DNA from: Clostridiales bacterium
GTDB taxonomy: Bacteria > Bacillota > Clostridia > Oscillospirales > CAG-272
Assembly (NCBI GenBank): GCA_918290775.1
Contig: CAKJZF010000012.1
Coordinates: 11,226 to 75,225 of the forward strand
DNA: 64,000 bases
Direction: 5' to 3'
The notes beneath the pieces were generated by a model that did no database searches, was not told where the DNA came from, and worked only from the letters and a program-made list of their open reading frames with translations. Shown here in pieces: positions 613-57,371 of the stretch (within the stretch, counting starts at the first letter, position 1; each line of letters starts with the position of its first letter). Both the position numbers and the translations under genes were made by a program.

Positions 613-1001
613 GGGGGTGCAATGGTTTCGACGGGGATTCTGACACATGATAAGCGTGGCGAGCCGGGTAAACTCGATAACTGCCCAACTAAAAAATAAA
701 CGACAACAACACTGTTGCTCTGGCTGCCTGATTTTACGCCGTTGGCGTAAAATCGACAGTGCCGTGACCTAAGGGTCACCCGTTCCTCCGAGGAGTACCA
801 CGACCTCGGGCGGAGCGTCAAATGAGTGGTGAACCTGCATCGGCGGTTCGCTCTTGAACCGATCAGGCAAAAAAGGGCTACTTGACGAGGGAGCGTGTCT
901 GTTCGCGCCTTCAACGGGGAATTTCAAATAACAGACTGTCCACGAAGAAGGTCATGCCGAGGGGTTTTCGGACATGGGTTCGATTCCCATCATCTCCACC
1001 A
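613..1001 (+). ncRNA. ssrA: transfer-messenger RNA (tmRNA, SsrA)
   Basis: 5' GGGGGTGCAATGGTTTCGACGGGG and 3' GGGTTCGATTCCCATCATCTCCACCA are the tRNA-like ends. Internal tag frame AAC GAC AAC AAC ACT GTT GCT CTG GCT GCC TGA (699-731) encodes ...NDNNTVALAA stop. Lies directly after smpB. Exact 5' end is uncertain by 1 nt. Confidence 0.93.
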
Positions 1002-1648: not shown

Positions 1649-2014
1649 ATGACGTTGAATGAGCGGCGCGAGCAAGTTCGATCTTTTCTCGGCAAGATTG
1701 TTGAGATTGAGATTGACCGCCCGATCGGATATGTGCACGAGAAGAACGGAAACCGATGGCAATACCCGATCAATTACGGTTATATTCCGAATGTGATCGG
1801 CGGGGACGGGGAGGAACTGGACGTCTATTTACTGGGTGTCGGGGAACCGGTGACCCGGTTTCGCTGTCGTGTGATCGGTGCTGTTTTGCGCGATGATGAC
1901 GATGAGGATAAACTCATCGCGGCGCCGGATGGGATGTTCTTCACCGCCTCCGAAATAGAGCAGTCCGTTCGTTTCCAAGAGCAATATCATGTGTCCCACA
2001 TCGTGACAATCTAA
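1649..2014 (+). CDS. inorganic pyrophosphatase-like protein (short form)
   Basis: 121 aa. YPINYGYIPNVIGGDGEELDVYLLG matches the YPxNYGxIP...DGDxxDV core of family I pyrophosphatases. GGAGG RBS upstream. Confidence 0.7.
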   Translation: MTLNERREQVRSFLGKIVEIEIDRPIGYVHEKNGNRWQYPINYGYIPNVIGGDGEELDVYLLGVGEPVTRFRCRVIGAVLRDDDDEDKLIAAPDGMFFTASEIEQSVRFQEQYHVSHIVTI

Positions 2015-2016
2015 AG

Positions 2017-2054
2017 GAAATTCCCCGAAAACACGGTACTTTTCGGGGAATTTT
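2017..2054. terminator. bidirectional intrinsic terminator between convergent genes
   Basis: GAAATTCCCCGAAAA / TTTTCGGGGAATTT stem of about 14 bp with 8-nt loop CACGGTAC. A T-rich tract follows on the + strand. Confidence 0.7.
2034..2043 (+). repeat. copy 1 of over-represented 10-mer CGGTACTTTT (extended form AAAACACGGTACTTTTC, 2028-2044)
   Basis: Read directly: cgAAAACACGGTACTTTTCgggg. Forms the loop and right arm of the terminator hairpin, 14 nt after the stop of the + strand gene. Confidence 0.85.
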
Positions 2055-2070
2055 CTTATTTGCTTCTTTT

Positions 2071-6475: not shown

Positions 6476-6504
6476 ATTATACCTGCTTTTCAAGGTTTTG
6501 TCAA
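6476..6504 (-). promoter_or_regulatory. sigma-A promoter of mnmA (TTGACA-17-TATAAT)
   Basis: On the minus strand, TTGACA (6499-6504) and TATAAT (6476-6481) with an exact 17-bp spacer. Confidence 0.65.
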
Positions 6505-6548
6505 GAGGGAAAAGAAACGGCAAATTTTTGCTTTTAACTTGTATTTTA

Positions 6549-6558
6549 CGGTACTTTT
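6549..6558 (+). repeat. copy 2 of 10-mer CGGTACTTTT (form TTTTACGGTACTTTT)
   Basis: Read directly: gtaTTTTACGGTACTTTTcgc, in the divergent mnmA/pdaA intergenic region, about 45 bp upstream of the mnmA -35. Confidence 0.85.
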
Positions 6559-6653
6559 CGCAAAAAACAGACAATTTTGCATCTTTTGATCTGTTTTTTT
6601 ACGTCAAAAAAGAAAATAATATAAGCGAATCGAAACAAGAAAGGAGACGTGTT

Positions 6654-7460: not shown

Positions 7461-8146
7461 ACCAACGATTTTTACGGTATTTTACGGTATTTTTAGCTGT
7501 TTTGCTATTCTGTTCAGCCTTTCTCTCGCTTCCTGCCGCGGCGTTAGGCTATCGTTGGGTTCCAACCGAAACAAGCCGGATTGCACTGACGTTTGACGAC
7601 GGACCGCACCCGCGCCTGACATCCCGGATCCTCGACATTTTGGATCGTTATGGGGTTCGTGCAACATTCTTTATGATCGGGCAGAATGTTGAGTATTATT
7701 CCGACGCGGCGCGGGAGGTTGTCGCTCGCGGCCATGAGATTGGGAACCACACCGCCAATCACCGTGCCCTTCACGGACTCAGTGAAGGGCAAATGAAAGA
7801 GGAACTGAACAATTGCGCCGAAAAAATTGAAGAGATTTGCGGATGCCGTTCGCGGTTGTTCCGACCGCCCGAGGGCGTTGTTGATAAAACGGTTTTTCGC
7901 ATTGCATCTGAAGGGAATTATGAAGTAATCCTTTGGAGCATCGACACGCGTGATTGGGAGATCAAGGATGAAAAGGCGATTGTCAACCGCGTGATCAGCG
8001 CGGTGAAACCGGGCGACATTATTCTGATGCACGATTTTATCGGCAGAAACAGCAAAACGCCGGAAGCTTTGGAAATTCTGCTTCCAAAGCTTCTGGCGTT
8101 GGGATATGAGCCGGTTACGGTCAGCGAATTATTGGGGATCGGTTGA
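7457..8146 (+). CDS. polysaccharide deacetylase family protein (NodB domain)
   Basis: 229 aa. Signal/TM segment, then ALTFDDGPHP and GHEIGNHTANH NodB motifs. Start overlaps the pdaA stop by 4 nt. Confidence 0.85.
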   Translation: MNQRFLRYFTVFLAVLLFCSAFLSLPAAALGYRWVPTETSRIALTFDDGPHPRLTSRILDILDRYGVRATFFMIGQNVEYYSDAAREVVARGHEIGNHTANHRALHGLSEGQMKEELNNCAEKIEEICGCRSRLFRPPEGVVDKTVFRIASEGNYEVILWSIDTRDWEIKDEKAIVNRVISAVKPGDIILMHDFIGRNSKTPEALEILLPKLLALGYEPVTVSELLGIG

Positions 8147-11437: not shown

Positions 11438-12250
11438 ATGAATCGGTTTCAATTCGGATTTATCGGTTGCGGAAATATGGGCGGTGCGCTTGCCTCCGCG
11501 GCGGCGGAAACACTTCGCGCAGATGCGCTTGCCGTTTGCGACGCGGATCCCGCCAAAACGGCGCCGCTTGCCGACAGCGGACGCGCAACGGTTGCAACGC
11601 TTGAGGAGGTAGCAAGGAAGAGCGTTTATCTCTTTCTTGCCGTGAAGCCGCAGGGGCTGGTCGGGCTGTTTGAGACCGTTCGACCCATTCTTGCGGAACG
11701 GGATGACCGTTTTGTGCTGGTTAGCATGGCGGCGGGAACCTCAGTGGAGCGGATTCGTGCGCTTGCGGGAGGGAATTATCCTGTCATTCGCATCATGCCG
11801 AACACGCCCGTTCGCGTCGGGAGCGGCATGACGGTTTACACCGCGGAGGGAACCACGGAAGAAGAGGTCGACGCTTTCCTGCGTGGACTTTCCGCCGCGG
11901 GACGTTTTGATCGGATTTCGGAACGCCTGATCGACGCCGCGGGAGCACTTTCCGGGTGCGGTCCCGCGTTTGTCTATCTGTTTGCCGAGGCGTTGGCGGA
12001 CGGCGGGGTGGAATGCGGTCTGCCACGCGACGCGGCAATCCTTTACGCGGCGCAAACGCTGGAAGGGGCGGCTAAAATGCTTTTGGAGTCGGGCGCACAC
12101 CCAGCCAAGCTGAAGGACGCCGTCTGCAGTCCCGGAGGAACAACGATCGCGGGCGTTCACGCGCTCGAATCCGGCGCTTTCAGAGGGACGGTCATGGCGG
12201 CTGTACGGGCGGCTTTTGAGAAAACAGAAAAGCTGAAAGAAAGCAGATGA
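11438..12250 (+). CDS. proC: pyrroline-5-carboxylate reductase
   Basis: FGFIGCGNMGGALA Rossmann motif and P5CR C-terminal dimerisation region. ATG 11438 follows GAAAGGAAGG. Confidence 0.92.
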   Translation: MNRFQFGFIGCGNMGGALASAAAETLRADALAVCDADPAKTAPLADSGRATVATLEEVARKSVYLFLAVKPQGLVGLFETVRPILAERDDRFVLVSMAAGTSVERIRALAGGNYPVIRIMPNTPVRVGSGMTVYTAEGTTEEEVDAFLRGLSAAGRFDRISERLIDAAGALSGCGPAFVYLFAEALADGGVECGLPRDAAILYAAQTLEGAAKMLLESGAHPAKLKDAVCSPGGTTIAGVHALESGAFRGTVMAAVRAAFEKTEKLKESR

Positions 12251-13215
12251 AAACAAGAAAAATCGTTGTTTTAGACGCGGCTTCTCTTGGAGATGATCTG
12301 GATCTGACTTTGTTTGAAGCCTTCGGTGACCTGACGGTTTATCGCGAGACCGATTCCGCCAATGCCGCCGACCATTTGAGAGATGCGGACATAGCGATTC
12401 TGAATAAGGTTCGCCTGACAGCGGAAATCCTTGCCGCCGTGCCGTCGCTTCGCCTGATTTGCGAGGCGGCGACCGGCTATGATAACATTGATATTCCGTA
12501 TTGCCGTGCGCACGGAGTCGCGGTCTGCAATGTAGTGGGATATTCCACGCAATGTGTGGCGCAGTTGACGGTGAGTATGGCGCTTTCGCTGGTGACGCGG
12601 CTTCGGGAGTTCGGAGACTATGTGCGAAGCGGGGCTTACACCGCGTCAGGTATTCCGAACCGATTGACGCCTGTTTTTCACGAGATCGCGGGGAAAACAT
12701 GGGGAATCATCGGCTACGGAAACATCGGAAAGCAGGTTGCCAAGGTTGCCGACGCGCTTGGTTGCCGCGTCATTGTCAACCGAAGAAACCCGATGGCGTC
12801 GTCGGAGCGCGAATGTGTAACCTTGGATGATATTTGCCGTCGCTCGGACATCCTTTCCATCCATACGCCGCTCAATGAAAGCACGCGGAATCTTTTGGAT
12901 CGGGAACACATTGCCATGTTGAGAAAGGATGCGATTGTGATCAACGTTGCACGAGGAGCTGTGACCGACGAGCACGCACTTGCAGAAGCTCTGGAGCAGG
13001 GAAACCTCGGAGGGATCGGAGTTGACGTTTATACACAGGAACCGTTTTCGGTAGATCACCCGTTTAACCGCATCAAGAATTTTCCGAATGTGTTGCTGAC
13101 GCCGCATATGGCGTGGGGCGGTTATGAGACCCGTGTCCGGCTGATGTCGGAGATGGTTGAAAACATCAGATCGTTTCTCGGCAACATCCCGAGAAATCGT
13201 GTTGATTTGCTGTAA
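12247..13215 (+). CDS. D-isomer-specific 2-hydroxyacid dehydrogenase (glycerate dehydrogenase-like)
   Basis: 322 aa. NAD-binding GIIGYGNIGKQVA, plus INVARG, GVDV and TPHMAW catalytic-region motifs. Confidence 0.85.
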   Translation: MKTRKIVVLDAASLGDDLDLTLFEAFGDLTVYRETDSANAADHLRDADIAILNKVRLTAEILAAVPSLRLICEAATGYDNIDIPYCRAHGVAVCNVVGYSTQCVAQLTVSMALSLVTRLREFGDYVRSGAYTASGIPNRLTPVFHEIAGKTWGIIGYGNIGKQVAKVADALGCRVIVNRRNPMASSERECVTLDDICRRSDILSIHTPLNESTRNLLDREHIAMLRKDAIVINVARGAVTDEHALAEALEQGNLGGIGVDVYTQEPFSVDHPFNRIKNFPNVLLTPHMAWGGYETRVRLMSEMVENIRSFLGNIPRNRVDLL

Positions 13216-13219
13216 AACA

Positions 13220-13229
13220 CGGTACTTTT
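13220..13229 (+). repeat. copy 3 of 10-mer CGGTACTTTT (extended 25-mer AAAACACGGTACTTTTCATAAAAAG, 13214-13238)
   Basis: Read directly. The element begins inside the TAA stop of the dehydrogenase gene and fills the 27-nt gap to the convergent peptidase gene. Confidence 0.85.
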
Positions 13230-13242
13230 CATAAAAAGTGGA

Positions 13243-14166
13243 TTAAAAGAACGTTGGGAAGCTGAACAACGCCTCCCGCAGTCGCAGATAAATCGGGAAG
13301 AAATCAGAGATTGGCAAAGGGTTGGTTCCGCGTCCGCATTCCAGCGTTGCCGCGGGAATCTTGCAGGTTTCGATGCACCAATCGGTCAATCCGCCATAGG
13401 ACGCGAGGTCCTCTGCTTCGCAAAGCGGATAGCCGCAGAGAAGCGACAGTTTGCGAAATGCCGCTTCGCTACCGACAACCGTTTTCCCGTGGCTTTTCCA
13501 ATAGATTTCTTCACCTTGGGTGTGGAGCGTGAGGACAGCTTTGAGCGGGGCATGAAATCGGATGTAGTTGCAGAGCGCGTGAACTTCCGGCTCGGATTCG
13601 GGAGCGAGACCGCTAAATCTCGTTGGAGCGCCGCAGGGAATCTCGTTTTCTTTTTCTAATTTTTTATATTCGTCGAATCCGGCGTCATAGTTGTGATTGA
13701 GATCTACGCCGCGCGCATTTGCCTGCCATCTGCCGAAATCCTCCTTTCCGCCGTTCATGCTGATCACGCGGCTTCGGAGCGGGTTTTCGGGGTCAATACC
13801 GTGAATGGCGTAGTCAATGCCGTCCGGGTTGAGCATGGGAACGACGTGGATCGTATAACTTTGCCATAAATCGGTCAGGTTTTTACGGTAAACGGGGCGA
13901 CCCAAATCGTAAAATTCGCAAAACTCGTTGACAAACCGCAGGAGCAGATTGGCGGTGATCCATTCCATGCCGTGGTGCGCACCGACATAGAGAAGTTGCT
14001 TTTTCCCTTGTCCGAGGATCAGAACCGGAATTTCCTTTCCGAGAATGCTTTTTCCGATACCCGAAACGGTGAGAATCGGGTAGGTTTCCGCGAGCTGATT
14101 GACAGCGGATGAGAGTGCGGCGCTATCCATAGGATGTTCCATCGGTAGAATCCGAGATCTTTCCAT
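13243..14166 (-). CDS. M14 family zinc peptidase (gamma-D-glutamyl-meso-diaminopimelate peptidase-like)
   Basis: 307 aa from ATG 14166 (AAGGAG RBS). Motifs HHGMEW, NPDG, GVDLNHNY, LTLHTQG. The 356-aa extension lacks an RBS and reaches the divergent gene. Confidence 0.8.
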   Translation of the reverse strand: MERSRILPMEHPMDSAALSSAVNQLAETYPILTVSGIGKSILGKEIPVLILGQGKKQLLYVGAHHGMEWITANLLLRFVNEFCEFYDLGRPVYRKNLTDLWQSYTIHVVPMLNPDGIDYAIHGIDPENPLRSRVISMNGGKEDFGRWQANARGVDLNHNYDAGFDEYKKLEKENEIPCGAPTRFSGLAPESEPEVHALCNYIRFHAPLKAVLTLHTQGEEIYWKSHGKTVVGSEAAFRKLSLLCGYPLCEAEDLASYGGLTDWCIETCKIPAATLECGRGTNPLPISDFFPIYLRLREALFSFPTFF

Positions 14167-14239
14167 ATCCGCAAAATCTCCTTTTTTGATTTGTTTTCTA
14201 TATGATTCTATGCCAACGCAGAAAGGACGGTGAAATCCG

Positions 14240-14959
14240 ATGGCAAAACGCTTAACGCACCTCGGAGGTGTTTGCCTTTTGGGACTGTCGATCCTTTTTT
14301 TTGCGGTTTGCACACCGATTTCGATTTGGGCAAGCGGCGACGTGCTGATTGCGGAGTCAATTTTTCCAACGGTTTGGGATCTGTTTCAGAGTTTTGTGCA
14401 ATTTTTGGTTTATTGGGTTGTGACGGTTTTTTTGTCGCTTTTGATGATCCGAACCGCCTCGGTGCGTAGCTGTCTCCCGCTTTTGGGTTGGTATGCGGCG
14501 ACGGCGGTTTTGCGGATTGGGGGAAGCCTGATTCTCGGATCATTCATAACGGCGGACGGTTTTGGATCCGATGCGTTTTCGGACAATGTTTGGTATGCGC
14601 TGTTGGATCTTTTGTTGGATTTCATCCTTGTCGGCTTGGTGCTTTTGACTTTGTATTTGTTGATTTTCCGTAAAAGTACCGTAAAAAGCGATGATTTTCA
14701 TCTTCCGCCAAACAGTTTTTTCAAGCAGCCGACCCGCCTTCATGTTGCCGTTGCGGCGGCAGTTGCGATCCCGTCGGTAATTCGATTGATCGGGCGCATC
14801 CGATATGACATCGACTTCGGCGCACCGCAAAACACAGCGGATCTGCTCTGGATGGTCTTTTATTATCTTGCAGATCTGATTTCTGTTTTGATCGGTTATC
14901 TGACGGTTTTGTTGTTGCTGAAAAAGCTATCTAACCCGCGCGAAGGTGACGTTAAATGA
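14240..14959 (+). CDS. hypothetical integral membrane protein
   Basis: 239 aa with 5-6 hydrophobic segments. ATG preceded by GAAAGGACGG. No family recognised. Confidence 0.6.
   Translation: MAKRLTHLGGVCLLGLSILFFAVCTPISIWASGDVLIAESIFPTVWDLFQSFVQFLVYWVVTVFLSLLMIRTASVRSCLPLLGWYAATAVLRIGGSLILGSFITADGFGSDAFSDNVWYALLDLLLDFILVGLVLLTLYLLIFRKSTVKSDDFHLPPNSFFKQPTRLHVAVAAAVAIPSVIRLIGRIRYDIDFGAPQNTADLLWMVFYYLADLISVLIGYLTVLLLLKKLSNPREGDVK
14672..14681 (-). repeat. copy 4 of 10-mer CGGTACTTTT (minus strand reads TTTTTACGGTACTTTTACGG)
   Basis: Read directly, inside the CDS (codons F-R-K-S-T-V-K-S). CCGTAAAA is directly repeated 11 bp apart. Confidence 0.85.
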
Positions 14960-18283: not shown

Positions 18284-18347
18284 AACCCATCCTTACTCAT
18301 CATTTATGGTAAATTGATTCAAAATGTTCCTTTTTACCTCTCTCAAT

Positions 18348-18371
18348 TATACAAAATTTGCATTTTGTATA
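18348..18371. promoter_or_regulatory. 10-bp perfect inverted repeat TATACAAAAT-ttgc-ATTTTGTATA (operator candidate)
   Basis: Read directly. On the minus strand it overlaps the TGTATAAT -10-like element upstream of the membrane protein gene. Confidence 0.5.
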
Positions 18372-18556
18372 ATTTATAATATAGAGAGGAACCGGGGGGC
18401 AGTTCTCTTTTGCGGTACACCGACGCGATGTTTGAAATGTCAGGTCCTTTTTTTCTCTCCCTGCCGCCATTTTGACGGGCTTTTCCCCATTATTTCACGG
18501 ATTTGCCGAATTTTGTGGAAAAATTTACGAAAGATTCACCTTTTTTCTGAAAAATG

Positions 18557-19117: not shown

Positions 19118-22100
19118 TCAAAAACGCATGGTGAGCTGATCGGTTTCGTTGATGTTGTCGAGTACACCACCGGATCGCAGAATATCAATGACAGATTTGG
19201 AGAGCTTTGCTCGCGTCTGCAAATCTTCAATTGAGAAAAACGGTTCTTCCTCGCGTGCCTGAATGATGTTTTCCGCGGCATTTTCTCCGAGTCCCGGAAG
19301 CGATGAGAACGGCATCCGCACCGCTCCGTTTTCGGGAAGAAACGCATAGGAATGCGATTTGGCAAGATCCACGGGGAGAAATTTCACGCCGCGTGCCATC
19401 GCTTCGTTCATCAACTGCAATGTGGAGATGCTGGCGATTTCCTTCGGAGAGGCTTCCTTACCGCGCTGGCGGATATCTTTCATCAGATTGACTACGTACT
19501 GTTTTCCAGCCCGCGCGACAGTCGCGTCAAATCCGTTTGGCGCAACGGTGAACATGGTGCAGTAAAACTCCACGGGTTTATGGACTTTATACCACGCCAG
19601 CCGGATCGCCGAGATGACATACGCGGCGGCGTGCGCTTTGGGAAACAGGTATTTGATCTTTTTGCAGGAGGTGATATACCATTCGGGAACGCCATGCTCC
19701 CGCATTTCCGCCTCCCATTCGGGCGTCAGCCCCTTCCCCTTTCGAACCGCTTCCATGATCTTGAAGGCGTGTGAATTCTCCAGCCCGTAGCGAATCAGGT
19801 CGATCATGATACCATCACGGGTTCCGATTACGCGGGAAATATCGCAGGTTCCCTCTTTGATCAGATCCTGCGCGTTGCCCAGCCAGACGTTTGTCCCATG
19901 GGTCAACCCGGAGATCTGAAGCAGGTCGGCAAAGTTATGCGGCTTTGCGTCGAGGAGCACTTGCTGAACGAAATTGGTCCCAAGCTCCGGCAACCCGAAG
20001 GTCCCGATCTCACAGTCAATGTCCGCCGGTTCCACGCCGAGCGGACGTGTGGATTCGAGCAATTCATAAACCGAGCTATCGTTCATAGCGACGTCGAGAA
20101 CCGATGTGTTTGTGAATGTCTCGAGCCATTTGTATTTGGTTGGCATATCATGCCCAAGCTCGTCGAGCTTCAGGATGGTGTCATGCAGATAGGAGAACGC
20201 AAAGTGGGTTGTGATGATGTCCGAATTGGGATCGTCAGCCGGGTGTTGGATGGGGGTGAAATCATAAACGTCGTACTTCTGCGGAACAACGATGATGCCG
20301 CCCGGATGCTGCCCCGTGGTCTTTTTGACACCGACGCAGTTCATGACCAAACGATTCATCTCCGCGCGAGGCAGACTGACGCCCATTTGCTCAACATACT
20401 TCGCAACATAACCGTAAGCGGTCTTGTCCGCCAACGTGCCAAGCGTCCCTGCGCGGAACACGTGTCCTTCCCCGAACAGTTCCTCTGTGTACTTATGGAC
20501 GCGTCCCTGCACGTCTCCCGAAAAGTTCAGGTCAATATCGGGCGATTTATCTCCGTAAAACCCGAGGAAGGTTTCAAACATGATGTCATGCCCGTCCGCG
20601 CGGTATTTGGTTCCGCATTTCGGGCAGTTCCGATCCGGCAGGTCAAAGCCGGATCCGACTTCCCCCTTTGTGAAAAACTCGCTGTGCTTACATTGCGGAT
20701 TGGGGCAATAGTAATGTGGCGGGAGCGGGTTGACCTCGGAGATTCCCGCCATGGTTGCGACAAACGAGGAGCCGACAGACCCTCGCGATCCGACCAAATA
20801 CCCCTGCTCTTCGCTGAAACGCACCAACCGCTGGGCAATCAGATACAGGACGGCAAACCCATTGTTGATGATGGAGGTCAGTTCCTTCTCCAACCGCTTG
20901 GAAACGATTTCGGGAAGCGGATCTCCGTACATATCCTTGGCGCGTTTCCAGCACATCTCCTGCAGTTCCTGCTCCGCTCCCTCCATCTCCGGGGTGTAGG
21001 ATCCCTTGGGGATCGGGCGGATCGGTTCAATCATGTCCGCAATCCGATTGGTGTTTGTGACCACAACCTCATAAGCCTTCTCTTTGCCGAGGTAAGAAAA
21101 CTCCTCCAGCATCTCGTCTGTGGTGCGGAAGTAGAGCTCCACATCCTTGTTGTAGTCCTTGAATTTCATACCGGCAAGGAGAATTTTGCGGTAAAGTTCG
21201 TCCTCACGGTTGAGAAAATGCGCGTCGCAGGTGGCGCAGACGGGCTTATGATACCGTTCTCCAAGCTCCACGATACGCCGATTGAGATCCCGAAGCCCTT
21301 CCTCATCGGCAACGCGCCCGTCCGTAATCAGAAAGCGGTTGTTGCAAATCGGTTGAATTTCAAGGTAATCATAGAAATTCACAATTTCCTCGATCTCGCT
21401 TTCGGGACGGTTTTCAAGGATGGCACGCATCAATTCGCCGGCTTCGCAGGCGGAACCGATGATCAGACCGTCGCGGTATTTTTCCAAAACGGTTTTCGGA
21501 ATCCGGGGTATGCGGTGAAAATAGTTCAGATAGCTCATAGAAATGAGCTTGTAGAGGTTTTTCAAGCCGGTTTGGTTTTTTACCAGCAGAATCTGATGAT
21601 AACTGTTGAGCTTGAGCGGATCGGATTTTTCGGTCATTTCCCGCTTGAGCGCGTCCAGATTCCGCAGCTCCATTTTCTGCATCTTATCGAGCATACAGAA
21701 ATAGATGTTTGCAAGCATTTCCGCGTCGTCGCAGGCGCGGTGATGGTTGAACTCGCCGAGCTGATAATATTCGGCAACCACATCCAACTTATGCGATTTC
21801 AATTCGGGATTGATGTATTTGGAGAGTCCGACTGTGTCGAGATAGGGATTCTCAAACGAAAGTCCGGACCGCTCGGCATAATAGCGGATAAAGCCGATGT
21901 CAAAATTTGCGTTGTGCGCGATCAGGAGCGGGTATGGCTTCCCTTCCGCAACCTTGTGATTCCCGATAAACGCAAAAAACGCGCGGAGTGCGTCGGCGAC
22001 CTTGGGCGCGCCTTTCACCATCTCGTCCGTGATGCCTGTGAGCTTCTCAATCTCTTCCGGAATCGGGCGCTCTGGGTCAACGAACGTGTTGAACCGCTCC

Positions 22101-36667: not shown

Positions 36668-37522
36668 TCATCCTTTCATCGTGTAGCCGATGCCGAGGCG
36701 ATTCAGAAAGAAAATTCCTGTGCCGAAGGCGATCAGCAGAAGCACGGCAAACACATCCGAAAATCGAAGGCGAAGCACCTTGAGGCGGGTTCTTCCCTCG
36801 CCCCCGTGATAGCAACGGCATTCCATTGCCGCCGCAAGTTCATACGCGCGGTTGAAGGCGGACACCAGCAACGGGATGAGCACGGGCAGAAGCGCCTTGG
36901 CGCGACGGATCAGACCGCCGCTGGTAAAATCGGCTCCGCGCGCTTTCTGCGCGTTCATAATCCGCTGGGTTTCCTCCATGAGCGTTGGGATGAAACGGAG
37001 CGCGATGGTGGTCATCATGGCGATGTCGTGCACCGGGACTTTGATCTTCTTGAGCGGGGCAAACAACCGCTCAAGCGCGTCGGTCAGGGCGATCGGCGTT
37101 GTGGTATAGGAGAGCAAAACCGATGTTCCGACGAGTAGGACAACGATCCTCAGAATCATAAAAAGTGCCGTCCAAAGCCCCTCTTCAAAGATCCGAATGC
37201 GCCAAACGTGGGTCCCCCAAAGCGGGATCTCCCAGGACGGCGTGAGCAGATGCTCGCCTTTGGTCATGAAGATGTTGATCAGAGATGTGAACGTGAGAAT
37301 CATGATCAGCGGTCGGATGGAACGCAGGATCATTCGGAGCGGAACGTGGCTGACCGCCGTCAGAAGGATCGCCGAGAGAACCAGCGCCGCAAAGCAAAGC
37401 GCGTTGCGGCAAAGAAAGGTGCAAACGATATATAAAACCGTCAGAATCACCTTTGCACGCGGATCCATCCGATGTATGGGCGAGTTTGCGGGATAGTATT
37501 GCCCGAAAGCGATGCTTTTCAT
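36668..37522 (-). CDS. ecfT: energy-coupling factor transporter transmembrane subunit EcfT
   Basis: 284 aa. CbiQ-family membrane protein directly downstream of two ECF ATPase genes. Confidence 0.92.
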   Translation of the reverse strand: MKSIAFGQYYPANSPIHRMDPRAKVILTVLYIVCTFLCRNALCFAALVLSAILLTAVSHVPLRMILRSIRPLIMILTFTSLINIFMTKGEHLLTPSWEIPLWGTHVWRIRIFEEGLWTALFMILRIVVLLVGTSVLLSYTTTPIALTDALERLFAPLKKIKVPVHDIAMMTTIALRFIPTLMEETQRIMNAQKARGADFTSGGLIRRAKALLPVLIPLLVSAFNRAYELAAAMECRCYHGGEGRTRLKVLRLRFSDVFAVLLLIAFGTGIFFLNRLGIGYTMKG

Positions 37523-38478
37523 GTAAGATTTCCTTTTTGAGACTGATAATACCGTTTCAGAATTTCAACGGCACGGTCAACCGTGTAAACGTTCTCGGGA
37601 ATGTCGATTCCCATCTTGCGCAAGCGGCGCATGAGTTGCGTGATCTGCGGAATATCCAGCCCGACCTCATCCAGCATGGAAACTTTGGAAAAAACCTCCT
37701 CGCAAGTACCCGCGGCAATCACCTTGGATTGCGACAGCACCACCATGTCGTCGCAATATTCCGCCATATCCTCCATACTGTGGCTGACAATGATGACAGA
37801 AGATGCGGTTGAGCGCTGATAGCGACGGATCTCCTCAAAAATCTGTTCTCTCCCGATCGGATCCAGCCCGGCGGCGGGTTCGTCGAGAACCAACACCTCC
37901 GGCTTCATGGCGATGACTCCGGCAATGGCAACCCGCCGCTTCTGCCCGCCTGAAAGATCAAACGGTGATTTTTCCAGTAAGCTCTCATCCAAACCGCTGA
38001 ATCTTGCCGCTTCGAGAACGCGCTCTCGAATTTCCTCGTCGGAAAGCCCCATGTTCTTCGGTCCATAGGCAATATCTTTGAAAACCGTCTCTTCAAAAAG
38101 CTGATATTCCGGATATTGCATGACAAGACCGACGCGGAAACAGAGACGGCGTTTTCTCGCCTCAACCTCTTTCCGAATCGCCTTTTTCGCGGTACTTTTG
38201 CGCAAATTCCGGTATTCCGGAAGCGTTAACCATGTTTTATAAAGTTCTTTTGCCGTGCTGTTGACGTCATATCCGTCCAAGAACACGTTTCCGCTTGTCG
38301 GCTTGGAAAGCCCGTTGAGGAGCATCATCATGGTGGACTTCCCGGATCCGGTATGTCCGATGACGCCCGTGATCCGACTCGCGCCGATATGAACGGTCAC
38401 ATCGTCAAGCGCCTGATGCTCAAAAGGAGTTCCCGCACTGTAGGTAAAGCTGACATGATCCAAATGGATTTTATCCAT
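37519..38478 (-). CDS. ecfA2: energy-coupling factor transporter ATPase (EcfA2)
   Basis: ABC ATPase with Walker A GHTGSGKST, signature LSGGQKRR and Walker B VLVLDEP. Carries a K/R-rich segment between Walker A and the Q-loop. Confidence 0.92.
   Translation of the reverse strand: MDKIHLDHVSFTYSAGTPFEHQALDDVTVHIGASRITGVIGHTGSGKSTMMMLLNGLSKPTSGNVFLDGYDVNSTAKELYKTWLTLPEYRNLRKSTAKKAIRKEVEARKRRLCFRVGLVMQYPEYQLFEETVFKDIAYGPKNMGLSDEEIRERVLEAARFSGLDESLLEKSPFDLSGGQKRRVAIAGVIAMKPEVLVLDEPAAGLDPIGREQIFEEIRRYQRSTASSVIIVSHSMEDMAEYCDDMVVLSQSKVIAAGTCEEVFSKVSMLDEVGLDIPQITQLMRRLRKMGIDIPENVYTVDRAVEILKRYYQSQKGNLT
38190..38199 (+). repeat. copy 5 of 10-mer CGGTACTTTT (TTTTTCGCGGTACTTTTGCGCAA)
   Basis: Read directly, antisense to ecfA2 codons R-K-S-T-A-K-K. 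Immediately followed by a TTGCGCAA palindrome (38197-38204). Confidence 0.85.
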
Positions 38479-41163: not shown

Positions 41164-44100
41164 ACGATATAACGCGGCGGGATCGCAAACGGGGATTTCT
41201 TTCCTTTTTGCGCGGAAACGGTTATCTGCTGTTGTGTATGGTGATTCCCGTTCTTCTCGTCTATCTGATCTATCTCGCACGTGGGATTCATCCGTGCGGG
41301 GACGGTTGCGTGCTTGTGCTGGATCTGACCGGGCAATACGTTTGGTTCTTTGAAGCGCTTCGCAATTTTGTCCGTGGGGACGGAAGTTTGCTTTATTCGT
41401 TTGAGCGTGCGCTCGGCGGTGAATTTCTCGGGATCTATGCCTATTACCTTGCAAGCCCATTTTCCTATTTGGTCTGCCTGTTTCCGAAAACCAAAATGCT
41501 GGAGGCTCTGCTTGCGCTTTTCCTGCTGAAAACGGCAATCTGCGGCGGCACGTTCGGCTTCTACATGAAAAAGACCGCACTGACGAGAAGCCGCGTTGCC
41601 GCGGTCATATTCTCGGTCTGCTATGCGGTTTCCAGTTATGCGATCGTGCAGCAGCACAACACCATGTGGATCGACGCGATGATGTGGCTCCCGCTGATTA
41701 CCCTCGGTATAGAAGAACTGATTCGCCACGGCAAATTCAAACTTTATACGTTTTTGCTTGCGGTCACGCTCTTCAGCAACTTCTATATTGGATATATGGT
41801 CTGCTTTTGGTGCGGGATCTACTTTCTCCTGTTCTACCTTGCGCACGGCGGCAAGGACGGCGACAACAACCCGCTCGGCGAACGGCTGCATTTTCTGAAA
41901 TCGCTTTTGCGGATGGTGTTTTTCTCGCTTCTCGCAGTCGGTATGGCGGCAATGATCCTGCTTGGCGCGTATTACTCGCTCAATTTCGGAAAAACAACCT
42001 TCTCCACCGCAAAATGGGAATGGTTTACCAACTTCGACTTTTTGGATCTCTTCTATAAATTCCTTCCCGGTTCCTACGACACCGTTCGCCCGGACGGATA
42101 CCCCTTCGTTTATTGCGGTGTTCTGACGCTTCTTCTCGTTCCCGCTTATTTCTACTCGAAAAAATACACGATGCGGCGCAAGATCTGCTCGGCGGTATTG
42201 GTGCTGTTCTTCGTTGTGAGCTTCTCTCTCTCGGTTTTCGATTTGATCTGGCACGGCTTCCAACTTCCCAACTGGCTGAACCACCGCTACAGCTTTATGC
42301 TCTGCTTTTACCTTTGCGTTTTGGCTTGCAGGGCGCTGGAGGAATTGGAGACCTTCTCGCTCAAGCTCGTGCTCGGCGTCGGCGGTTTGATTGCAATTTT
42401 TACGGTACTTTTGCAGAAATTTACCGATATTGCCCACACCGATCCGAAGGATTTTTCCTGTATTTGGTTCACGCTTGCCTGTTTGATCGTGTATCTTTCG
42501 ATTCTCGGAATCTCGCGTTCCGGCGTTCGGAAAAAGCAGGTTGCGAGCATTGCCCTGTTGGTTGCCGTTTGCGTTGAGACCTTTGTGAACGGGTTGCTCA
42601 ACATGAACGCGTTGGACGAGGATGTTGCCTACACCAAATACAGCTACTACAACAATTTTCTTGCCAAAACCCGCCCGCTTGTGGAAGAGGTTCAGGCAGA
42701 GGACGCCTCTTTTTACCGCATGGAAAAGACCTACTTTCGTAAGGTGAACGACAACATGGGCTTGGAGATGCGCGGACTTTCCGGTTCAACTTCCACACTG
42801 AATCAGGAAACCATTCTGTTTTTGGACAAGATGGGCTATGCCTCCCGGTCGCATTGGTCAAAATATGTCGGCGGCACGCCGGTCAATGATTCTCTGCTCG
42901 GACTGAAATATATTCTTTCCGATAATTCCATTTACGGAAACTATTATGAAGTGTTCAAGACCGACGAGGTAAACGGCTACACTGCCTATCGCAACCCCTA
43001 TGCGCTCTCGATTGCCTATGGCGTTGACGACGCGCTTTTGGAATTTCCGCTTGGCTATTCCGCGAGCGATGAGGAAGCCGCCGATGACAAAAAAACAAGC
43101 CCGATTGCCAATGCCGTCAGCGCGGTCAAAGCGACGCTCAACAAATGGTTTGATATTGACGAAACGGTTCGCGGGGACAACTATGTGGATGCGTATGACA
43201 GCCCGTTTGAACGCCTCAACGCCATGGTAACGGCGATGCTCGGCGAGGAGGAGACCGTACAGGTGTTTGTTCCGATTCCGCTTTCCGGTCGCGTCACCAC
43301 AAGCAATCTGGAACGCCCATGGTCAGGCGAGGGACATTCCTGCTATGACAAGACCGACAGTTCGCTTTCTTCCTCCGTGACAGCAACCATTGAAATGCCT
43401 GTGAGCGGAGAACTGTATTTCTACCAGCCAACGCGCTTCCCGCGCGAAATTTCGCTCGAGCTGACCGACAAGACCGATGATATCAGCAAAAAATATGACC
43501 GTTTCGGCGGAAGCGAAACAACCCGCATCATCTCGCTCGGCAATCAGACGGAAGGTCACAAACTCTCGCTCAAAATGACACTGGAGGCTTCTAACCTCTA
43601 TTACCTGAAGGATGCCGACTGGTTCTATTACATTGATTGGGATGTGTTTGAAGACGTCATGACGCGCCTTGCCTCCGATCAATTCCAAATCGAAAAATTC
43701 ACCGAGGATTCCTTTACCGGAAGCCTGACAACATCCCAAAGCGACGAACTGATCCTGACGACGCTTGCATTTGACAAGGGCTGGAAGATCACGGTGGACG
43801 GTCAGCGAGCGGAGCCTGTGAAAGCGCTTGGATCCCTTGTTGCGTTCCGCGTTTCGGGAGAAGCCGGAACGCATACGGTCAAGATGGTCTATCGCCCCAA
43901 TACCTTTGTTGCGGGGTCAATTATATCCTGTATCTCGGTATTGCTGTTCGTTGTTTTGGCGTCGTTGTCCCCGCTGTTGCGCAAGGTCCCGGTTTTGCGC
44001 AGTTTGGTTTCGGTACCGATTCGGGAGAGAAAGCCGAAGCCATCCGAGAGCAAAGCGCCGGTGCCGCAGGAAGTCAAGGACCCGTCTCCTCCGGCATCTT

Positions 44101-45982: not shown

Positions 45983-46038
45983 TACCGAGAAAACGACCGT
46001 TGCAAACAGTTTGCAACGGTCGTTTTCTCGGTACTTTT
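45983..46038. terminator. 23-bp perfect hairpin between ruvB and the convergent gene, ending in the CGGTACTTTT word
   Basis: TACCGAGAAAACGACCGTTGCAA (45983-46005), loop ACAGT, TTGCAACGGTCGTTTTCTCGGTA (46011-46033), then CTTTT. Confidence 0.8.
46029..46038 (+). repeat. copy 7 of 10-mer CGGTACTTTT (TTTTCTCGGTACTTTT, 46023-46038)
   Basis: Read directly. Spans the end of the right hairpin arm and the T-tract after ruvB. Confidence 0.85.
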
Positions 46039-46046
46039 GAGGAAAA

Positions 46047-47153
46047 TCAGCTCTTTTTGCCGAAAATATCATGCATCAATTCCTTTGCGCTTTCGTTAAA
46101 AAGCGCTGTTAATGTTCGGGAGAGAATCTTCCCTACGGTGGGATCCAACTGCATCCCGCGAATCAGCCAACGATTCTTCAGAGAGGCGAGATCGGTCAAT
46201 GTCAGCGCGTTGTCGGATGAGAGAACACGATAAAGCGCCTCGGTGAATTGCTCCCGCTGTCCGGGTGTCATCTCCCGGATCCATGTGTTCATCGTGCGGT
46301 CGGTTCGTTTGCTGTCCGCTCCAACGTCGCGCAGATGCACAAATTTTCCGCCGAGTACATTCCAAGAAAGCGCGTCATGCTGCAAAACGCCCACCTGACG
46401 GCTGCTGACAACCGTGTAGTCCTCCTCATGCTCCAGCAGCATTCCGACCACAGCCGATTTCGGAACGATGGTATGAATGCGCGGTTTGAGATCGAGATAC
46501 AACGGATCTGTCAGCATTCCTCCGCCGAACCCGGGGCCGTCGTTGTTCCAAACCCCCACGATCCGACTCTTCAGGGCTTCGTTGCAATGCACACCCGCGT
46601 AGACCGCGAGATTTCCGCCTTTGCTATGCCCGGTTACATAGAGCTTTCCGCTCGAACTTTTTGCCGCATCGTTCAGGTATTCCGCCGCGCGAATCTGTGC
46701 GGGAACGCACGGAAGAAAGCTCATGTTAAAGTTTTCTTTCCATCCGACAATGGTGTCATCGGTTCCGCGGTAGGCAACAACGGTTCCGACTTTTCCCAAG
46801 AGAAACGTCACCGCGGAAAACTGCATTTCCCGTTGGAGATCAATTTCATTCACATAGGCACGCAGTCCAACGCCCCGGAACCGCCGGGTGTCCTTGATCG
46901 CTTTGAAGAGTTTAATGATGTCCTTCGGAATGATCAGACCGATGGTGGCTTTCCGCAGGTCGGGATGGCTCGCAAAATAGGCATTTGCGGCGGATTGTAA
47001 CGAAACCGGCGCGTCGGAATGTCCTGCCGGAACAACGTCTTTCAGTTCAATATAGGAGATGAGGGAAAAGATCAGACTATCCACCTCATTGGGCGGAACT
47101 TGCTCAAAGCTGAGGTCGCCGCGCCAATGAACATAATCAAATACAGTTCCCAT
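46047..47153 (-). CDS. DUF2974 / Mbeg1-like alpha/beta hydrolase (lipase-like)
   Basis: 368 aa. Nucleophile elbow GHSKGG and VAYRGTDDTIVGWKENF, typical of the family. Confidence 0.75.
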   Translation of the reverse strand: MGTVFDYVHWRGDLSFEQVPPNEVDSLIFSLISYIELKDVVPAGHSDAPVSLQSAANAYFASHPDLRKATIGLIIPKDIIKLFKAIKDTRRFRGVGLRAYVNEIDLQREMQFSAVTFLLGKVGTVVAYRGTDDTIVGWKENFNMSFLPCVPAQIRAAEYLNDAAKSSSGKLYVTGHSKGGNLAVYAGVHCNEALKSRIVGVWNNDGPGFGGGMLTDPLYLDLKPRIHTIVPKSAVVGMLLEHEEDYTVVSSRQVGVLQHDALSWNVLGGKFVHLRDVGADSKRTDRTMNTWIREMTPGQREQFTEALYRVLSSDNALTLTDLASLKNRWLIRGMQLDPTVGKILSRTLTALFNESAKELMHDIFGKKS

Positions 47154-51551: not shown

Positions 51552-51605
51552 CCAAAAGCGTCCGCCACACAGTTTGTGCGGCGGACGCTTTTGGGTTTTG
51601 CTTTT
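51552..51605. terminator. intrinsic terminator after rhaA (shared with convergent topB)
   Basis: CCAAAAGCGTCCGCCACAC / GTGCGGCGGACGCTTTTGG 19-bp stem with one mismatch, followed by GTTTTGCTTTTT. Confidence 0.85.
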
Positions 51606-51609
51606 TACG

Positions 51610-51619
51610 AAAAGTACCG
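51610..51619 (-). repeat. copy 8 of 10-mer CGGTACTTTT (minus strand 25-mer AAAACACGGTACTTTTCGTAAAAAG, 51601-51625)
   Basis: Read directly. Starts 9 nt after the topB stop, in the topB sense orientation. Confidence 0.85.
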
Positions 51620-51633
51620 TGTTTTTCTCTCTT

Positions 51634-53838: not shown

Positions 53839-53880
53839 GACAATTCCCCCCTTTCCTGTTTATTTTGCGGTATTTTCCGT

Positions 53881-53930
53881 AAAAAAAACCGCAGTTCTGC
53901 TCGATTGTTTTCGCAGAACTGCGGTTTTTT
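53881..53930. terminator. bidirectional intrinsic terminator
   Basis: CCGCAGTTCTGC / GCAGAACTGCGG 12-bp stem flanked by A8 and T6 tracts. Confidence 0.85.
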
Positions 53931-57354: not shown

Positions 57355-57371
57355 GTTTGCGCAACGGATAC

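What the first reader, a model, noticed from the sequence alone, without database searches (positions are those of the whole stretch)
13214..13238. Extended element AAAACACGGTACTTTTC(R)TAAAAAG at three convergent gene junctions, each in the sense orientation of the nearest upstream gene
The 17-mer AAAACACGGTACTTTTC is identical at 2028-2044(+), 13214-13230(+) and 51609-51625(-). Two copies extend to a 25-mer with a single A/G difference: 13214-13238 AAAACACGGTACTTTTCATAAAAAG and the minus strand of 51601-51625, AAAACACGGTACTTTTCGTAAAAAG. All three lie between convergent genes, and each starts 0-14 nt after a stop codon of the gene whose sense strand carries the word. One is inside the TAA of the 2-hydroxyacid dehydrogenase gene, one is 14 nt after the pyrophosphatase-like gene, and one is 9 nt after topB. 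Only the first copy is embedded in a strong hairpin, CCCCGAAAA-CACGGTAC-TTTTCGGGG. The other two can form only weak A/U stems. So the sequence is conserved and the secondary structure is not. At 13214-13238 no canonical terminator exists, and this element is essentially the whole intergenic spacer.
Basis: partly seen in the sequence, partly recalled or inferred. Interest (0 to 1): 0.6.

Follow-up and report, generated by a model that had tools for sequence, protein, structure and literature searches.

The report
Clade-specific dispersed DNA word at gene ends
The repeated 17-mer is real. It is the strongest form of a roughly 25-bp DNA word (core CGGTACTTTT) that a small group of uncultured rumen and gut Clostridia keep at the same genomic spots, mostly between converging genes, and it seems to be read as DNA by an unknown protein rather than as an RNA structure.

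Summary
AAAACACGGTACTTTTC occurs exactly at 2028(+), 13214(+) and 51609(-), where none is expected by chance. All three copies lie in spacers between convergent genes.

The 17-mer is not a stand-alone 3' element. It belongs to a family with the invariant core CGGTACTTTT and the consensus W5-YR-CGGTAC-TTTT-CGNN-AAAA. The core occurs 8 times in the window. In 150 kb from related genomes it occurs 26 times against 0.3 expected. It is almost absent from sister lineages.

Copies 1 and 2 sit at orthologous positions in 3 and 5 lineages whose coding DNA is only about 60-72% identical. Copy 3 is absent from the closest relatives.

One family member lies inside a poorly conserved membrane-protein gene, antisense to its mRNA. 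It is invariant there even at synonymous sites, so selection acts on the DNA.

Only copy 1 is a true terminator: its outer stem covaries and its loop is conserved.

Best reading: a recognition word for an unidentified sequence-specific DNA-binding protein, concentrated at the ends of transcription units. A DNA-uptake-signal-like role is the most novel reading that the evidence does not exclude.

The parts
2028..2044 (+). Copy 1 of the 17-mer (A-flanked form). It forms the inner stem and the loop of the terminator hairpin at 2014-2057.
   Evidence: Orthologues at L136:1331 and L139:364 keep AAAACGCGGTACTTTTC, while the outer stem covaries (CCCCG/CGGGG versus CTCCG/CGGAG).
2014..2057 (+). Intrinsic terminator hairpin between the pyrophosphatase-like gene (1649-2014, +) and MgtC (2071-2787, -). 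Its loop is CACGGTAC.
   Evidence: -24.7 kcal/mol, z = -6.2. Listed. The hairpin is kept in L136 (z = -6.6) and L139 (z = -4.0).
13214..13238 (+). Copy 2, the 25-mer AAAACACGGTACTTTTCATAAAAAG. It fills the 27-nt spacer between the convergent stop codons of the 2-hydroxyacid dehydrogenase gene (12247-13215, +) and the M14 peptidase gene (13243-14313, -).
   Evidence: It is conserved at the orthologous spot in L010, L034/L136, L139/L140 and L141/L142. No significant fold is predicted in any lineage.
51601..51625 (-). Copy 3, the 25-mer AAAACACGGTACTTTTCGTAAAAAG. It lies 8 nt after the topB stop codon and directly next to the terminator hairpin.
   Evidence: The 25-mer is identical to L139 copy 2. 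It is absent at the same junction in L132/L133 and L134/L135.
51552..51594 (.). Strong bidirectional terminator hairpin between rhaA and topB, next to copy 3.
   Evidence: -46.6 and -41.6 kcal/mol on the two strands, z = -6.9 and -6.0. Coordinates.
6541..6568 (+). T-flanked family member GTATTTTACGGTACTTTTCGCAAAAAAC in the divergent spacer between mnmA and a polysaccharide deacetylase gene. It lies about 40 nt upstream of a perfect TTGACA-17-TATAAT promoter for mnmA.
   Evidence: 35.7 bits. It is the only well-conserved block of that spacer in the alignment with L136. Orthologues are at L139:4867 (tandem pair) and L141:6540.
7467..7504 (+). Two overlapping CGGTAT variants 10 bp apart, in the N-terminal (signal-peptide) codons of the second deacetylase gene.
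   Evidence: Orthologues are at L136:8143, L139:5809 and L141:7523. Conservation here may be partly driven by the protein sequence.
14662..14689 (-). T-flanked member inside a membrane-protein gene (14240-14959, +), antisense to its mRNA.
   Evidence: Codon alignment: the protein is weakly conserved, yet T4-N4-AAAAGTACCG-N2-A5 is invariant in 4 lineages, including at synonymous sites. In L141 the site is a perfect 24-bp palindrome.
46021..46048 (+). Member forming the 3' arm and T-tract of the ruvB terminator, at the convergent junction between ruvB and an Mbeg1-like gene.
   Evidence: 23.9 bits. An orthologous member is at L132:16468.
53860..53887 (+). CGGTAT variant lying between the terminator of the upstream gene and the topB start codon.
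   Evidence: 19.5 bits. The orthologous spot in L132 (about 9950) carries a tandem CGGTAT + CGGTAC pair 21 bp apart.
38182..38209 (+). Perfect-core member inside an ABC-ATPase gene (37519-38478, -). Conservation in relatives was not tested.
   Evidence: 28.7 bits.
42395..42422 (+). Perfect-core member inside the YfhO-like gene (41019-44231, +). No core was found in the orthologous gene of L132.
   Evidence: 31.1 bits.

Best explanation
The 17-mer is the A-flanked version of a clade-specific dispersed DNA word about 25 bp long. Its consensus is W5 (all A or all T)-Y-R-CGGTAC-TTTT-C-G-N-N-AAAA. The word is kept by selection on the double-stranded DNA sequence itself.

The most likely reader is an as yet unidentified sequence-specific DNA-binding protein. 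That protein would recognise the asymmetric CGGTAC core together with the narrow-groove A/T tracts beside it.

The word is concentrated at the ends of transcription units, in spacers between convergent genes and in or next to terminators. At those places I infer that the bound protein marks or insulates the junction. It would act as an architectural site or a transcription roadblock that supplements or replaces a hairpin terminator. Where an A4 run lies upstream, the word also pairs with its own T4 run and can be built into a real terminator hairpin, as in copy 1.

What is shown and what is inferred:
- Shown: the family exists, it is over-represented, it is conserved at orthologous positions, and selection acts at the DNA level.
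- Inferred: a protein reads it.
- Speculative: what the bound protein does at the junction.
For: 1. **Family and over-representation.** CGGTACTTTT occurs 8 times in the window. In 150 kb of clade DNA it occurs 26 times against 0.3 expected. In 72 kb of sister-lineage DNA it occurs once.
2. **Independent recovery.** A weight matrix trained only on relatives recovers 16 window sites above 12 bits, against about 0.5 in shuffles.
3. **Conservation at orthologous positions** while coding DNA is only about 60-72% identical:
   - Copy 2 is kept in 5 lineages.
   - Copy 1 is kept in 3 lineages, with a conserved loop and a compensatory change in the outer stem.
   - The mnmA/deacetylase spacer site is the only well-conserved block of its spacer.
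4. **Selection on DNA.** The intragenic member is antisense to its mRNA. It is invariant at synonymous sites and across an Arg-to-Ser replacement, in a protein that is otherwise poorly conserved.
5. **Orientation.** Family members are mixed in orientation relative to transcription.
6. **Placement.** Four of the 8 perfect cores lie in the 474 nt of convergent spacers (binomial P = 2e-7). Four of the 9 convergent junctions carry the word.
7. **Signs of a protein reader.**
   - The left flank is an A-run or a T-run and never mixed, which fits shape readout.
   - Tandem copies are spaced 10, 19, 20 and 21 bp apart, that is, on one face of the helix.
   - One site is a perfect 24-bp palindrome.
8. 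**No RNA explanation for copy 2.** No RNA structure is predicted in any lineage, and no Rfam family matches.
Against: - No candidate binding protein was identified. The neighbouring genes have unrelated functions.
- The motif carries about 25.6 bits in total. About 14 of those bits come from the 9 positions used to collect the sites, so they are partly circular; the flanks contribute 11.6 bits. At roughly one site per 5 kb, only about 13 bits would be needed to specify the sites.
- Perfect cores (26) outnumber the excess of one-mismatch cores (about 13). Both features are unusual for an ordinary regulator and are typical of words spread by copying or by biased uptake.
- A roadblock role fits badly with conserved sites inside genes in both orientations.
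- Enrichment at convergent rather than promoter-bearing spacers is not what a transcription factor shows.
- Copy 3 and the YfhO site are absent from close relatives, so not every copy is indispensable.
- The genome-wide distribution could not be examined.
Confidence: 0.45

Rival explanations
1. Uptake-signal-like word (DUS/USS type). The competence machinery of this clade would prefer DNA carrying CGGTACTTTT plus its A/T tracts. Biased uptake followed by recombination would then drive the word to high copy number in tolerant places: convergent spacers, terminators and poorly conserved coding stretches.
For: - The core is strict and asymmetric with phased A/T tracts.
- The core is about 87-fold over-represented, and perfect cores outnumber mismatched ones.
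- The information content exceeds what is needed to specify the sites.
- Identical 25-mers occur at non-homologous loci in different genomes: window copy 3 equals L139 copy 2.
- Both orientations occur, in spacers and in a weakly conserved coding stretch.
- Members lie in or next to terminators. Inverted pairs form hairpins at L025:1780-1815 and L141:14683-14706.
- The word is a clade-specific 'dialect', absent from sister lineages.
- A sister lineage of L025 has only a 3-mismatch version at the same spot.
- Published DUS/USS behave in this way: about half lie in terminators, and they accumulate in permissive regions (bioRxiv 10.1101/2025.10.24.684340).
Against: - Sequence-specific uptake is known only in Neisseriaceae and Pasteurellaceae. 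From my own knowledge, the studied Gram-positive systems take up DNA without sequence preference.
- The density, about 1 per 5 kb, is several-fold lower than for classical DUS/USS.
- Tandem copies at helical spacing are not predicted by this model.
- Neither competence genes nor the genome-wide distribution could be checked.
Confidence: 0.2
2. RNA 3'-UTR element. The transcribed word AAAACACGGUACUUUUC, just after the stop codon, would be bound by a protein or small RNA, or would act as a non-canonical terminator, processing site or stabiliser.
For: - All A-flanked copies lie 0-24 nt after a stop codon, on the sense strand of that gene, in front of or inside a terminator. These are the 3' ends of the pyrophosphatase-like gene, the 2-hydroxyacid dehydrogenase gene, topB and the L025 gene.
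- Copy 1 is part of a real terminator that shows covariation.
Against: - The same core with the same right flank occurs in both orientations relative to transcription. It is under DNA-level selection where it lies antisense inside a gene.
- An A-run and a U-run upstream would be very different in RNA, yet both are used.
- Copy 2 has no significant fold in any of 5 lineages.
- At convergent junctions the 'sense' assignment is ambiguous.
- There are only 4 independent loci, so the chance of uniform orientation is about 0.06.
- No Rfam family matches.
Confidence: 0.1
3. Polar replication-fork trap (Ter-like) or another terminus-specific site. The window spans the replication terminus, and the exact copies are oriented + + on the left and - on the right.
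For: - GC skew is positive in all 18 one-kb bins up to 18 kb and about zero or negative after that.
- Gene strand bias flips near 13.2 kb: 10 plus and 4 minus genes to the left, 9 plus and 36 minus to the right (Fisher P = 7e-4).
- The three 17-mers have the orientation expected of a trap.
Against: - Orientations in the wider family are mixed on the right side of the window.
- Copy 3 is absent from the closest relatives.
- Family members also occur in L025, in a different gene context, so the word is probably not confined to this region.
- None of the roughly 26 window proteins scanned, including all neighbours of the three copies, matched an RTP or Tus family. The window was not scanned exhaustively.
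- The skew is asymmetric (+0.08 against -0.02), and 64 kb is too short to place a terminus.
Confidence: 0.05
4. Relic or active small repeat of the REP/MITE type. The word would have spread by a transposase-like activity into spacers at gene ends.
For: - Members are enriched at convergent junctions.
- Copies are gained and lost between close relatives.
- In the outgroup L137 the same two genes converge with only a 6-nt spacer, so the copy 2 element looks like an insertion.
Against: - The word is not a palindrome.
- The unit is only about 25 bp long, and no similarity extends into the flanks.
- Members inside coding sequence are conserved.
- Orthologous copies persist across lineages whose coding DNA is only about 60-72% identical, which requires selection.
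- Viral contigs show only chance-level hits.
Confidence: 0.07

Closest known systems
DNA uptake sequences (Neisseriaceae DUS, Pasteurellaceae USS)
   Same: - A short, strict, asymmetric core with flanking A/T tracts.
- Strong over-representation, with perfect cores dominating.
- Both orientations are used.
- Placement in terminators, spacers and weakly conserved coding stretches.
- Conservation at orthologous positions.
- Lineage-specific 'dialects'.
   Different: - The phylum is different: a Gram-positive type Clostridia clade.
- The density is several-fold lower.
- Single copies sit in loops or beside hairpins, rather than inverted pairs forming the stem.
- There is no evidence of competence or biased uptake.
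REP/BIME elements of Enterobacteria, with their IHF and gyrase binding
   Same: - A dispersed extragenic word concentrated at 3' ends and convergent junctions.
- A similar density, about 1 per 5-8 kb.
- Proposed protein binding and effects on the 3' ends of transcripts.
   Different: - REPs are imperfect GC-rich palindromes of 20-40 nt and are strictly extragenic.
- This word is asymmetric and AT-flanked, occurs inside genes, and is conserved at orthologous positions across lineages.
Rho-independent (intrinsic) terminators
   Same: Copy 1 and the ruvB copy are parts of genuine hairpin-plus-T-tract terminators. Copy 3 abuts one.
   Different: - The conserved part is a loop or flank sequence, not the stem.
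- Copy 2 has no hairpin in any lineage.
- The word also occurs at 5' ends and inside genes.
Polar replication terminators (Tus-Ter, RTP-Ter)
   Same: - An asymmetric site of about 20-25 bp in spacers at gene ends.
- The exact copies are in opposed orientation around a point where GC skew and gene strand bias switch.
   Different: - The wider family shows no consistent polarity.
- One copy is not conserved.
- No cognate protein gene was found nearby.
- The sequence is unrelated to known Ter sites.
Operators of global regulators or nucleoid proteins (e.g. CodY box AATTTTCWGAAAATT, IHF sites)
   Same: - A T4-N3/4-A4 segment, tandem sites at helical spacing, and the occasional palindrome.
- About 10 of 15 positions match the CodY box when aligned by eye.
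   Different: - The invariant CGGTAC part is not explained by any known box.
- The sites avoid promoters.
- The information content is far higher than for typical operators.

Membership tests
Intrinsic terminator | A stable GC-containing hairpin directly followed by a T/U tract. | tested here: inconclusive
   - Copy 1: met (z = -6.2; covariation).
- Copy 2: not met in any of 5 lineages.
- Copy 3: the element itself is unstructured, but the adjacent hairpin at 51552-51594 qualifies.
DUS/USS uptake sequences | Strong genomic over-representation of a strict short core, with perfect copies dominating over mismatched ones. | tested here: met
   In 150 kb there are 26 perfect cores against 0.3 expected, and 22 one-mismatch cores against 8.7 expected. 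This covers sampled loci only, not a whole genome.
DUS/USS uptake sequences | Hundreds to thousands of copies spread over the whole chromosome. | not testable with these tools
   The source genome could not be retrieved. Only L025 samples an unlinked region.
DUS/USS uptake sequences | Both orientations; located in terminators, spacers and permissive coding regions; a dialect shared within a clade. | tested here: met
   The word is absent in L134, L137, L138, L006 and L143.
DUS/USS uptake sequences | Preferential uptake by competent cells, with a cognate receptor. | not testable with these tools
   This needs uptake or transformation assays. Competence genes were not surveyed.
REP/BIME | An imperfect palindrome able to form a stem-loop, strictly extragenic. 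| tested here: not met
   The word is asymmetric, and copies 2 and 3 have no significant fold. Conserved members lie inside genes.
Tus/RTP-type Ter sites | Two opposed groups of polar sites flanking the terminus, with a cognate terminator protein. | tested here: inconclusive
   The three exact copies are + + / - around a skew and strand-bias switch. However, the family's orientation is mixed, copy 3 is not conserved, and no RTP or Tus domain was found among the proteins scanned.
Any Rfam RNA family | A score at or above the family's gathering threshold. | tested here: not met
   Only tmRNA and tRNA-Val pass in the window. Scans of the three copies by E-value give only generic hairpin hits far below threshold.
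Transcription-factor operator | Sites lie mainly upstream of regulated genes, and the motif is degenerate with information roughly matched to the number of sites. | tested here: not met
   Only 2 of about 10 window sites are in 5' spacers. Four of the 8 perfect cores are in convergent spacers. The motif carries about 25.6 bits against about 13 bits needed (14 of those bits are partly circular because the core was the search pattern).

The most novel reading that the evidence does not exclude
The word is a DNA-uptake (self-recognition) signal of a Gram-positive clade of uncultured rumen and gut Oscillospiraceae-like Clostridia. That would make it the first DUS/USS-type system outside Neisseriaceae and Pasteurellaceae. 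The three 17-mers would be copies lodged in terminator loops and convergent spacers.
Probability: 0.18. Interest if true: 0.85.

Novelty: new variant of a known kind. Interest (0 to 1): 0.55.

Why it matters
Short genome-wide DNA words such as DUS/USS, REP, Chi and KOPS each revealed a piece of machinery that reads the chromosome. None has been described for this abundant but uncultured group of gut and rumen Clostridia.

This word is about 25 bp long. It survives at the same positions while the surrounding genes have diverged to about 60-72% identity. It fills spacers between convergent genes that have no terminator, and it overrides codon choice inside a gene. All of this implies an unknown sequence-specific reader.

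It could be a competence receptor, an architectural or insulator protein, or a termination helper. The answer would bear on how these organisms end transcription at hairpin-less junctions, or on whether they discriminate self DNA. The word is also a simple lineage marker for binning metagenomes.

Tried and rejected
**Searches that gave nothing useful**
- Genome-collection scan for the 17-mer: 48 single hits. Most were chance or coding matches, for example EKYRVF codons in L006, L024, L040 and L048. Only L010, L034 and L025 were informative.
- Metagenome scan: 83 hits, none related to the window.
- Viral scan: 6 hits, at chance level.
- The source contig could not be fetched.
- Literature search for the words returned only primers.
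- Rfam at gathering and at E-value thresholds returned no family.

**Readings considered by eye against consensus sequences recalled from memory, and dropped**
- A sigma-70 promoter. The word falls in the spacer region or has no -10 box. The real mnmA promoter lies elsewhere.
- Sigma-54: the GG/GC spacing is wrong.
- ECF, SigI and SigD promoters.
- The CcpA cre site, parS, ComK and ComA boxes, and the FapR and AraR boxes. These share only GTAC with the word.
- The CodY box: about 10 of 15 positions match, and only in the right half.
- IHF sites.

**Other ideas dropped**
- A short ORF. AAA ACA CGG TAC TTT TC[A/G] TAA reads KTRYFS* in copies 2 and 3, but the frame is not kept in L034 or in copy 1.
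- An RTP-like gene next to copy 1. The 121-aa ORF is pyrophosphatase-like.
- A dif site. The best candidate, 18362-18389, matches B. subtilis dif at only 19 of 28 positions.
- The weak CGGTAT hit at 15209. It is explained by the conserved SpoU peptide GGEKRGIS and is not counted as a member.
Full report
**1. Observation**

The 17-mer AAAACACGGTACTTTTC occurs exactly at 2028-2044(+), 13214-13230(+) and 51609-51625(-). No other hit appears with up to two mismatches, and no match appeared in 100 dinucleotide-preserving shuffles. Copies 2 and 3 extend to 25-mers that differ by one A/G.

Pfam and ORF calls place each copy between convergent genes:
- Copy 1: a pyrophosphatase-like gene (+) and MgtC (-).
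- Copy 2: a 2-hydroxyacid dehydrogenase gene (+), the last gene of a proBAC-type operon, and an M14 peptidase gene (-).
- Copy 3: rhaA (+) and topB (-).

The stop codons lie 13, 0 and 8 nt before the copies.

Folding results:
- Copy 1 is the inner stem and loop of a strong terminator (-24.7 kcal/mol, z = -6.2).
- Copy 2 has no significant fold on either strand.
- Copy 3 is unstructured but abuts a strong bidirectional terminator.

**2. The 17-mer is part of a larger family**

K-mer counting showed that the commonest 10-mer of the window is CGGTACTTTT, with 8 copies at 2034+, 6549+, 13220+, 14681-, 38190+, 42403+, 46029+ and 51619-. CGGTAT variants occur at 7475/7485, 32700 and 53868.

Thirty instances from the window and related loci give this consensus:
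- a run of five A or five T, never mixed;
- Y, R, then CGGTAC and TTTT;
- C, G, N, N, then AAAA, K, Y;
- a further A/T tract about 11 bp downstream.

The three 17-mers are the form with an A-run on the left.

A weight matrix trained only on sequences from relatives finds 16 window sites above 12 bits, against about 0.5 in shuffled windows. The matrix holds 25.6 bits. About 14 of those come from the 9 positions used as the search pattern and are therefore partly circular; the flanks contribute 11.6 bits.

**3. Relatives**

The organism is an uncultured Clostridia lineage. Neighbouring records are named Ruminococcaceae or Oscillospiraceae, Ruminococcus sp. RUG14066 and Clostridia bacterium RGIG8357 from buffalo rumen.

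A scan of one genome per species returned 48 single hits to the 17-mer, most of them chance or coding matches. L010 and L034 were different: they are syntenic with window 7.3-14.1 kb at about 72% nucleotide identity and keep the exact 17-mer at the orthologous spot.

Look-ups around ProB and TopB homologues gave further syntenic loci. The results for each site:
- **Copy 2** is present in five lineages: the window, L010, L136 (the L034 genome), L139/L140 and L141/L142. It reads T[AG]A-AAAC[AG]CGGTACTTTTC[AG][TC]AA[AT]AAGT and fills the whole spacer between the two stop codons.
- **L139's copy 2** is identical over 25 nt to the window's copy 3.
- **In the outgroup L137** the same two genes converge with a 6-nt spacer and no element.
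- **Copy 1** is present in L136 and L139 with one A-to-G change. The outer stem changes in a compensatory way (CCCCG/CGGGG to CTCCG/CGGAG), and the hairpin stays strong.
- **Copy 3** is absent at the topB junction in L132/L133 (85% TopB identity) and in L134/L135.
- **Other family members** are also kept at orthologous positions. These are the mnmA/deacetylase spacer site, the site at the start of the second deacetylase gene, the site in the membrane-protein gene, the ruvB 3' site and the topB 5' site.
- **Sister lineages** L134, L137, L138, L006 and L143 have essentially no copies: 1 in 72 kb, plus none in the 20.7 kb of L143.
- **In the clade** there are 26 perfect cores in 150 kb against 0.3 expected. 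One-mismatch cores number 22 against 8.7 expected.

**4. DNA or RNA?**

The decisive case is the member at 14662-14689. It lies inside a membrane-protein gene and is antisense to its mRNA.

The codon alignment of four lineages shows a weakly conserved protein. Even so, T4-N4-AAAAGTACCG-N2-A5 is invariant, including the third positions of the Lys, Ser and Thr codons, and it survives an Arg-to-Ser replacement. In L141 the site has become a perfect 24-bp palindrome, CGGTACTTTTGCGCAAAAGTACCG.

Three further points argue for the DNA duplex as the thing being read:
- Orientation relative to transcription is mixed across the family.
- An A-run and a T-run are interchangeable on the left flank.
- Copy 2 has no fold in any lineage.

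No Rfam family matches.

The RNA reading keeps some support for the A-flanked copies. All four independent loci have the word just after a stop codon, on the sense strand. However, four loci and ambiguous convergent junctions make this weak.

**5. Placement**

Four of the 8 perfect cores of the window fall in the 474 nt of convergent spacers (binomial P = 2e-7). Four of the 9 convergent junctions carry the word. Divergent and co-directional spacers carry one each.

Several members are in or directly beside terminator hairpins: copy 1, copy 3, the ruvB site, the L025 copy, the topB 5' site and the site at 32700. This pattern is not that of an ordinary transcription factor. It resembles REP/BIME elements and DNA uptake sequences. 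For the latter, about half of all copies lie in predicted terminators and the rest accumulate in permissive regions (bioRxiv 10.1101/2025.10.24.684340).

**6. Mechanism**

I rank the explanations as follows.

a. **A recognition word for an unidentified sequence-specific DNA-binding protein, placed mainly at the ends of transcription units (0.45).**
   - For: shape-like flanks, tandem copies at 10, 19, 20 and 21 bp, and the occasional palindrome.
   - Against: no candidate protein, excess information content, dominance of perfect cores, and conserved sites inside genes.

b. **An uptake-signal-like word (0.18-0.2).**
   - It fits nearly all the pattern features, including identical 25-mers at unrelated loci, clade-specific presence, and a degenerate version at the same spot in a sister lineage of L025.
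   - Its prior is low, because such signals are known only in two Gram-negative families.

c. **An RNA 3'-UTR element (0.1).**

d. **A REP/MITE-type repeat (0.07).**

e. **A Ter-like fork trap (0.05).**
   - The window does show a terminus-like switch. GC skew is positive in all 18 one-kb bins up to 18 kb. Gene strand bias is 10 plus and 4 minus to the left of 13.2 kb, against 9 plus and 36 minus to the right (Fisher P = 7e-4).
   - The exact copies are oriented + + / -.
   - However, the family's orientation is mixed, and copy 3 is not conserved.

Chance is excluded.

**7. Novelty and verdict**

The word matches no described motif in the literature search or in Rfam. It behaves like the known classes of short dispersed genomic words but differs from each:
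- It is asymmetric, unlike REP.
- It comes from a Gram-positive type clade and is sparser than DUS/USS.
- It lies at positions that ordinary operators do not occupy.

I classify it as a new variant of a known kind, of moderate to good interest.

Noticed in passing
window 1-64000, switch near 13.2-18.3 kb: The window has a terminus-like signature. GC skew is positive in every 1-kb bin from 1 to 18 kb and about zero or negative afterwards. Gene strand bias flips from 10 plus and 4 minus to 9 plus and 36 minus at about 13.2 kb (Fisher P = 7e-4). Loci that extend past the left end (L141, L137) have only plus-strand genes there. polC is at 19118-23593(-).
   Followed up: partly
window 18333-18389: An AT-rich spacer holds the inverted repeat ATTATACAAAAT-TTGC-ATTTTGTATAAT flanked by CTCTC/GAGAG. 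One arm matches B. subtilis dif at 19 of 28 positions and sits exactly at the skew maximum. It could be a weak dif candidate or an operator.
   Followed up: partly
L141 14683-14706: The intragenic family member has become a perfect 24-bp palindrome, CGGTACTTTTGCGCAAAAGTACCG, inside the membrane-protein gene. It folds at -16.3 kcal/mol (z = -3.0).
   Followed up: partly
L137 18153-18160: In an outgroup genome the M14 peptidase and 2-hydroxyacid dehydrogenase genes still converge, but with only a 6-nt spacer. The 27-nt element of copy 2 therefore looks like a gain in the motif-bearing clade.
   Followed up: partly
L143 10726-10790; L025 1780-1832: The L025 copy is followed by a terminator whose stem is an inverted pair of CGGTATTTT. 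In the sister lineage L143 the terminator is kept, but the upstream copy reads AAAACACAGTGCTTTTT (3 mismatches).
   Followed up: partly
window 13214-13234 and 51605-51625(-): In one frame, copies 2 and 3 both read AAA ACA CGG TAC TTT TC[A/G] TAA = KTRYFS-stop, and the A/G difference is synonymous. The frame is not preserved in copy 1 or in L034, so this is probably coincidence.
   Followed up: partly
window 25772, 32696, 40943, 45983, 46024: A second repeated word, (A)TACCGAGAAA(A), occurs 4-5 times. One copy lies just upstream of a start codon (40943) and two form the arms of the ruvB terminator. Its relation to the CGGTAC family is unclear.
   Followed up: no
window 613-1001 and 57278-58478: A tmRNA gene (tag DNNTVALAA) lies next to smpB. 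A tRNA-Val gene lies directly beside a tyrosine recombinase gene (57420-58478, -), which is also present in L132. This may be a Xer-type recombinase or an integration module.
   Followed up: no
window 6476-6504(-): A perfect TTGACA-17-TATAAT promoter for mnmA. The family member at 6541-6568 lies about 40 nt upstream of its -35 box.
   Followed up: no
window 15209(-): A weak A-flanked match, GAAAAACGCGGTATTTCC, inside the SpoU methylase gene. It encodes the conserved peptide GGEKRGIS and varies at synonymous sites in L139, so it is driven by the protein sequence and is not a family member.
   Followed up: yes
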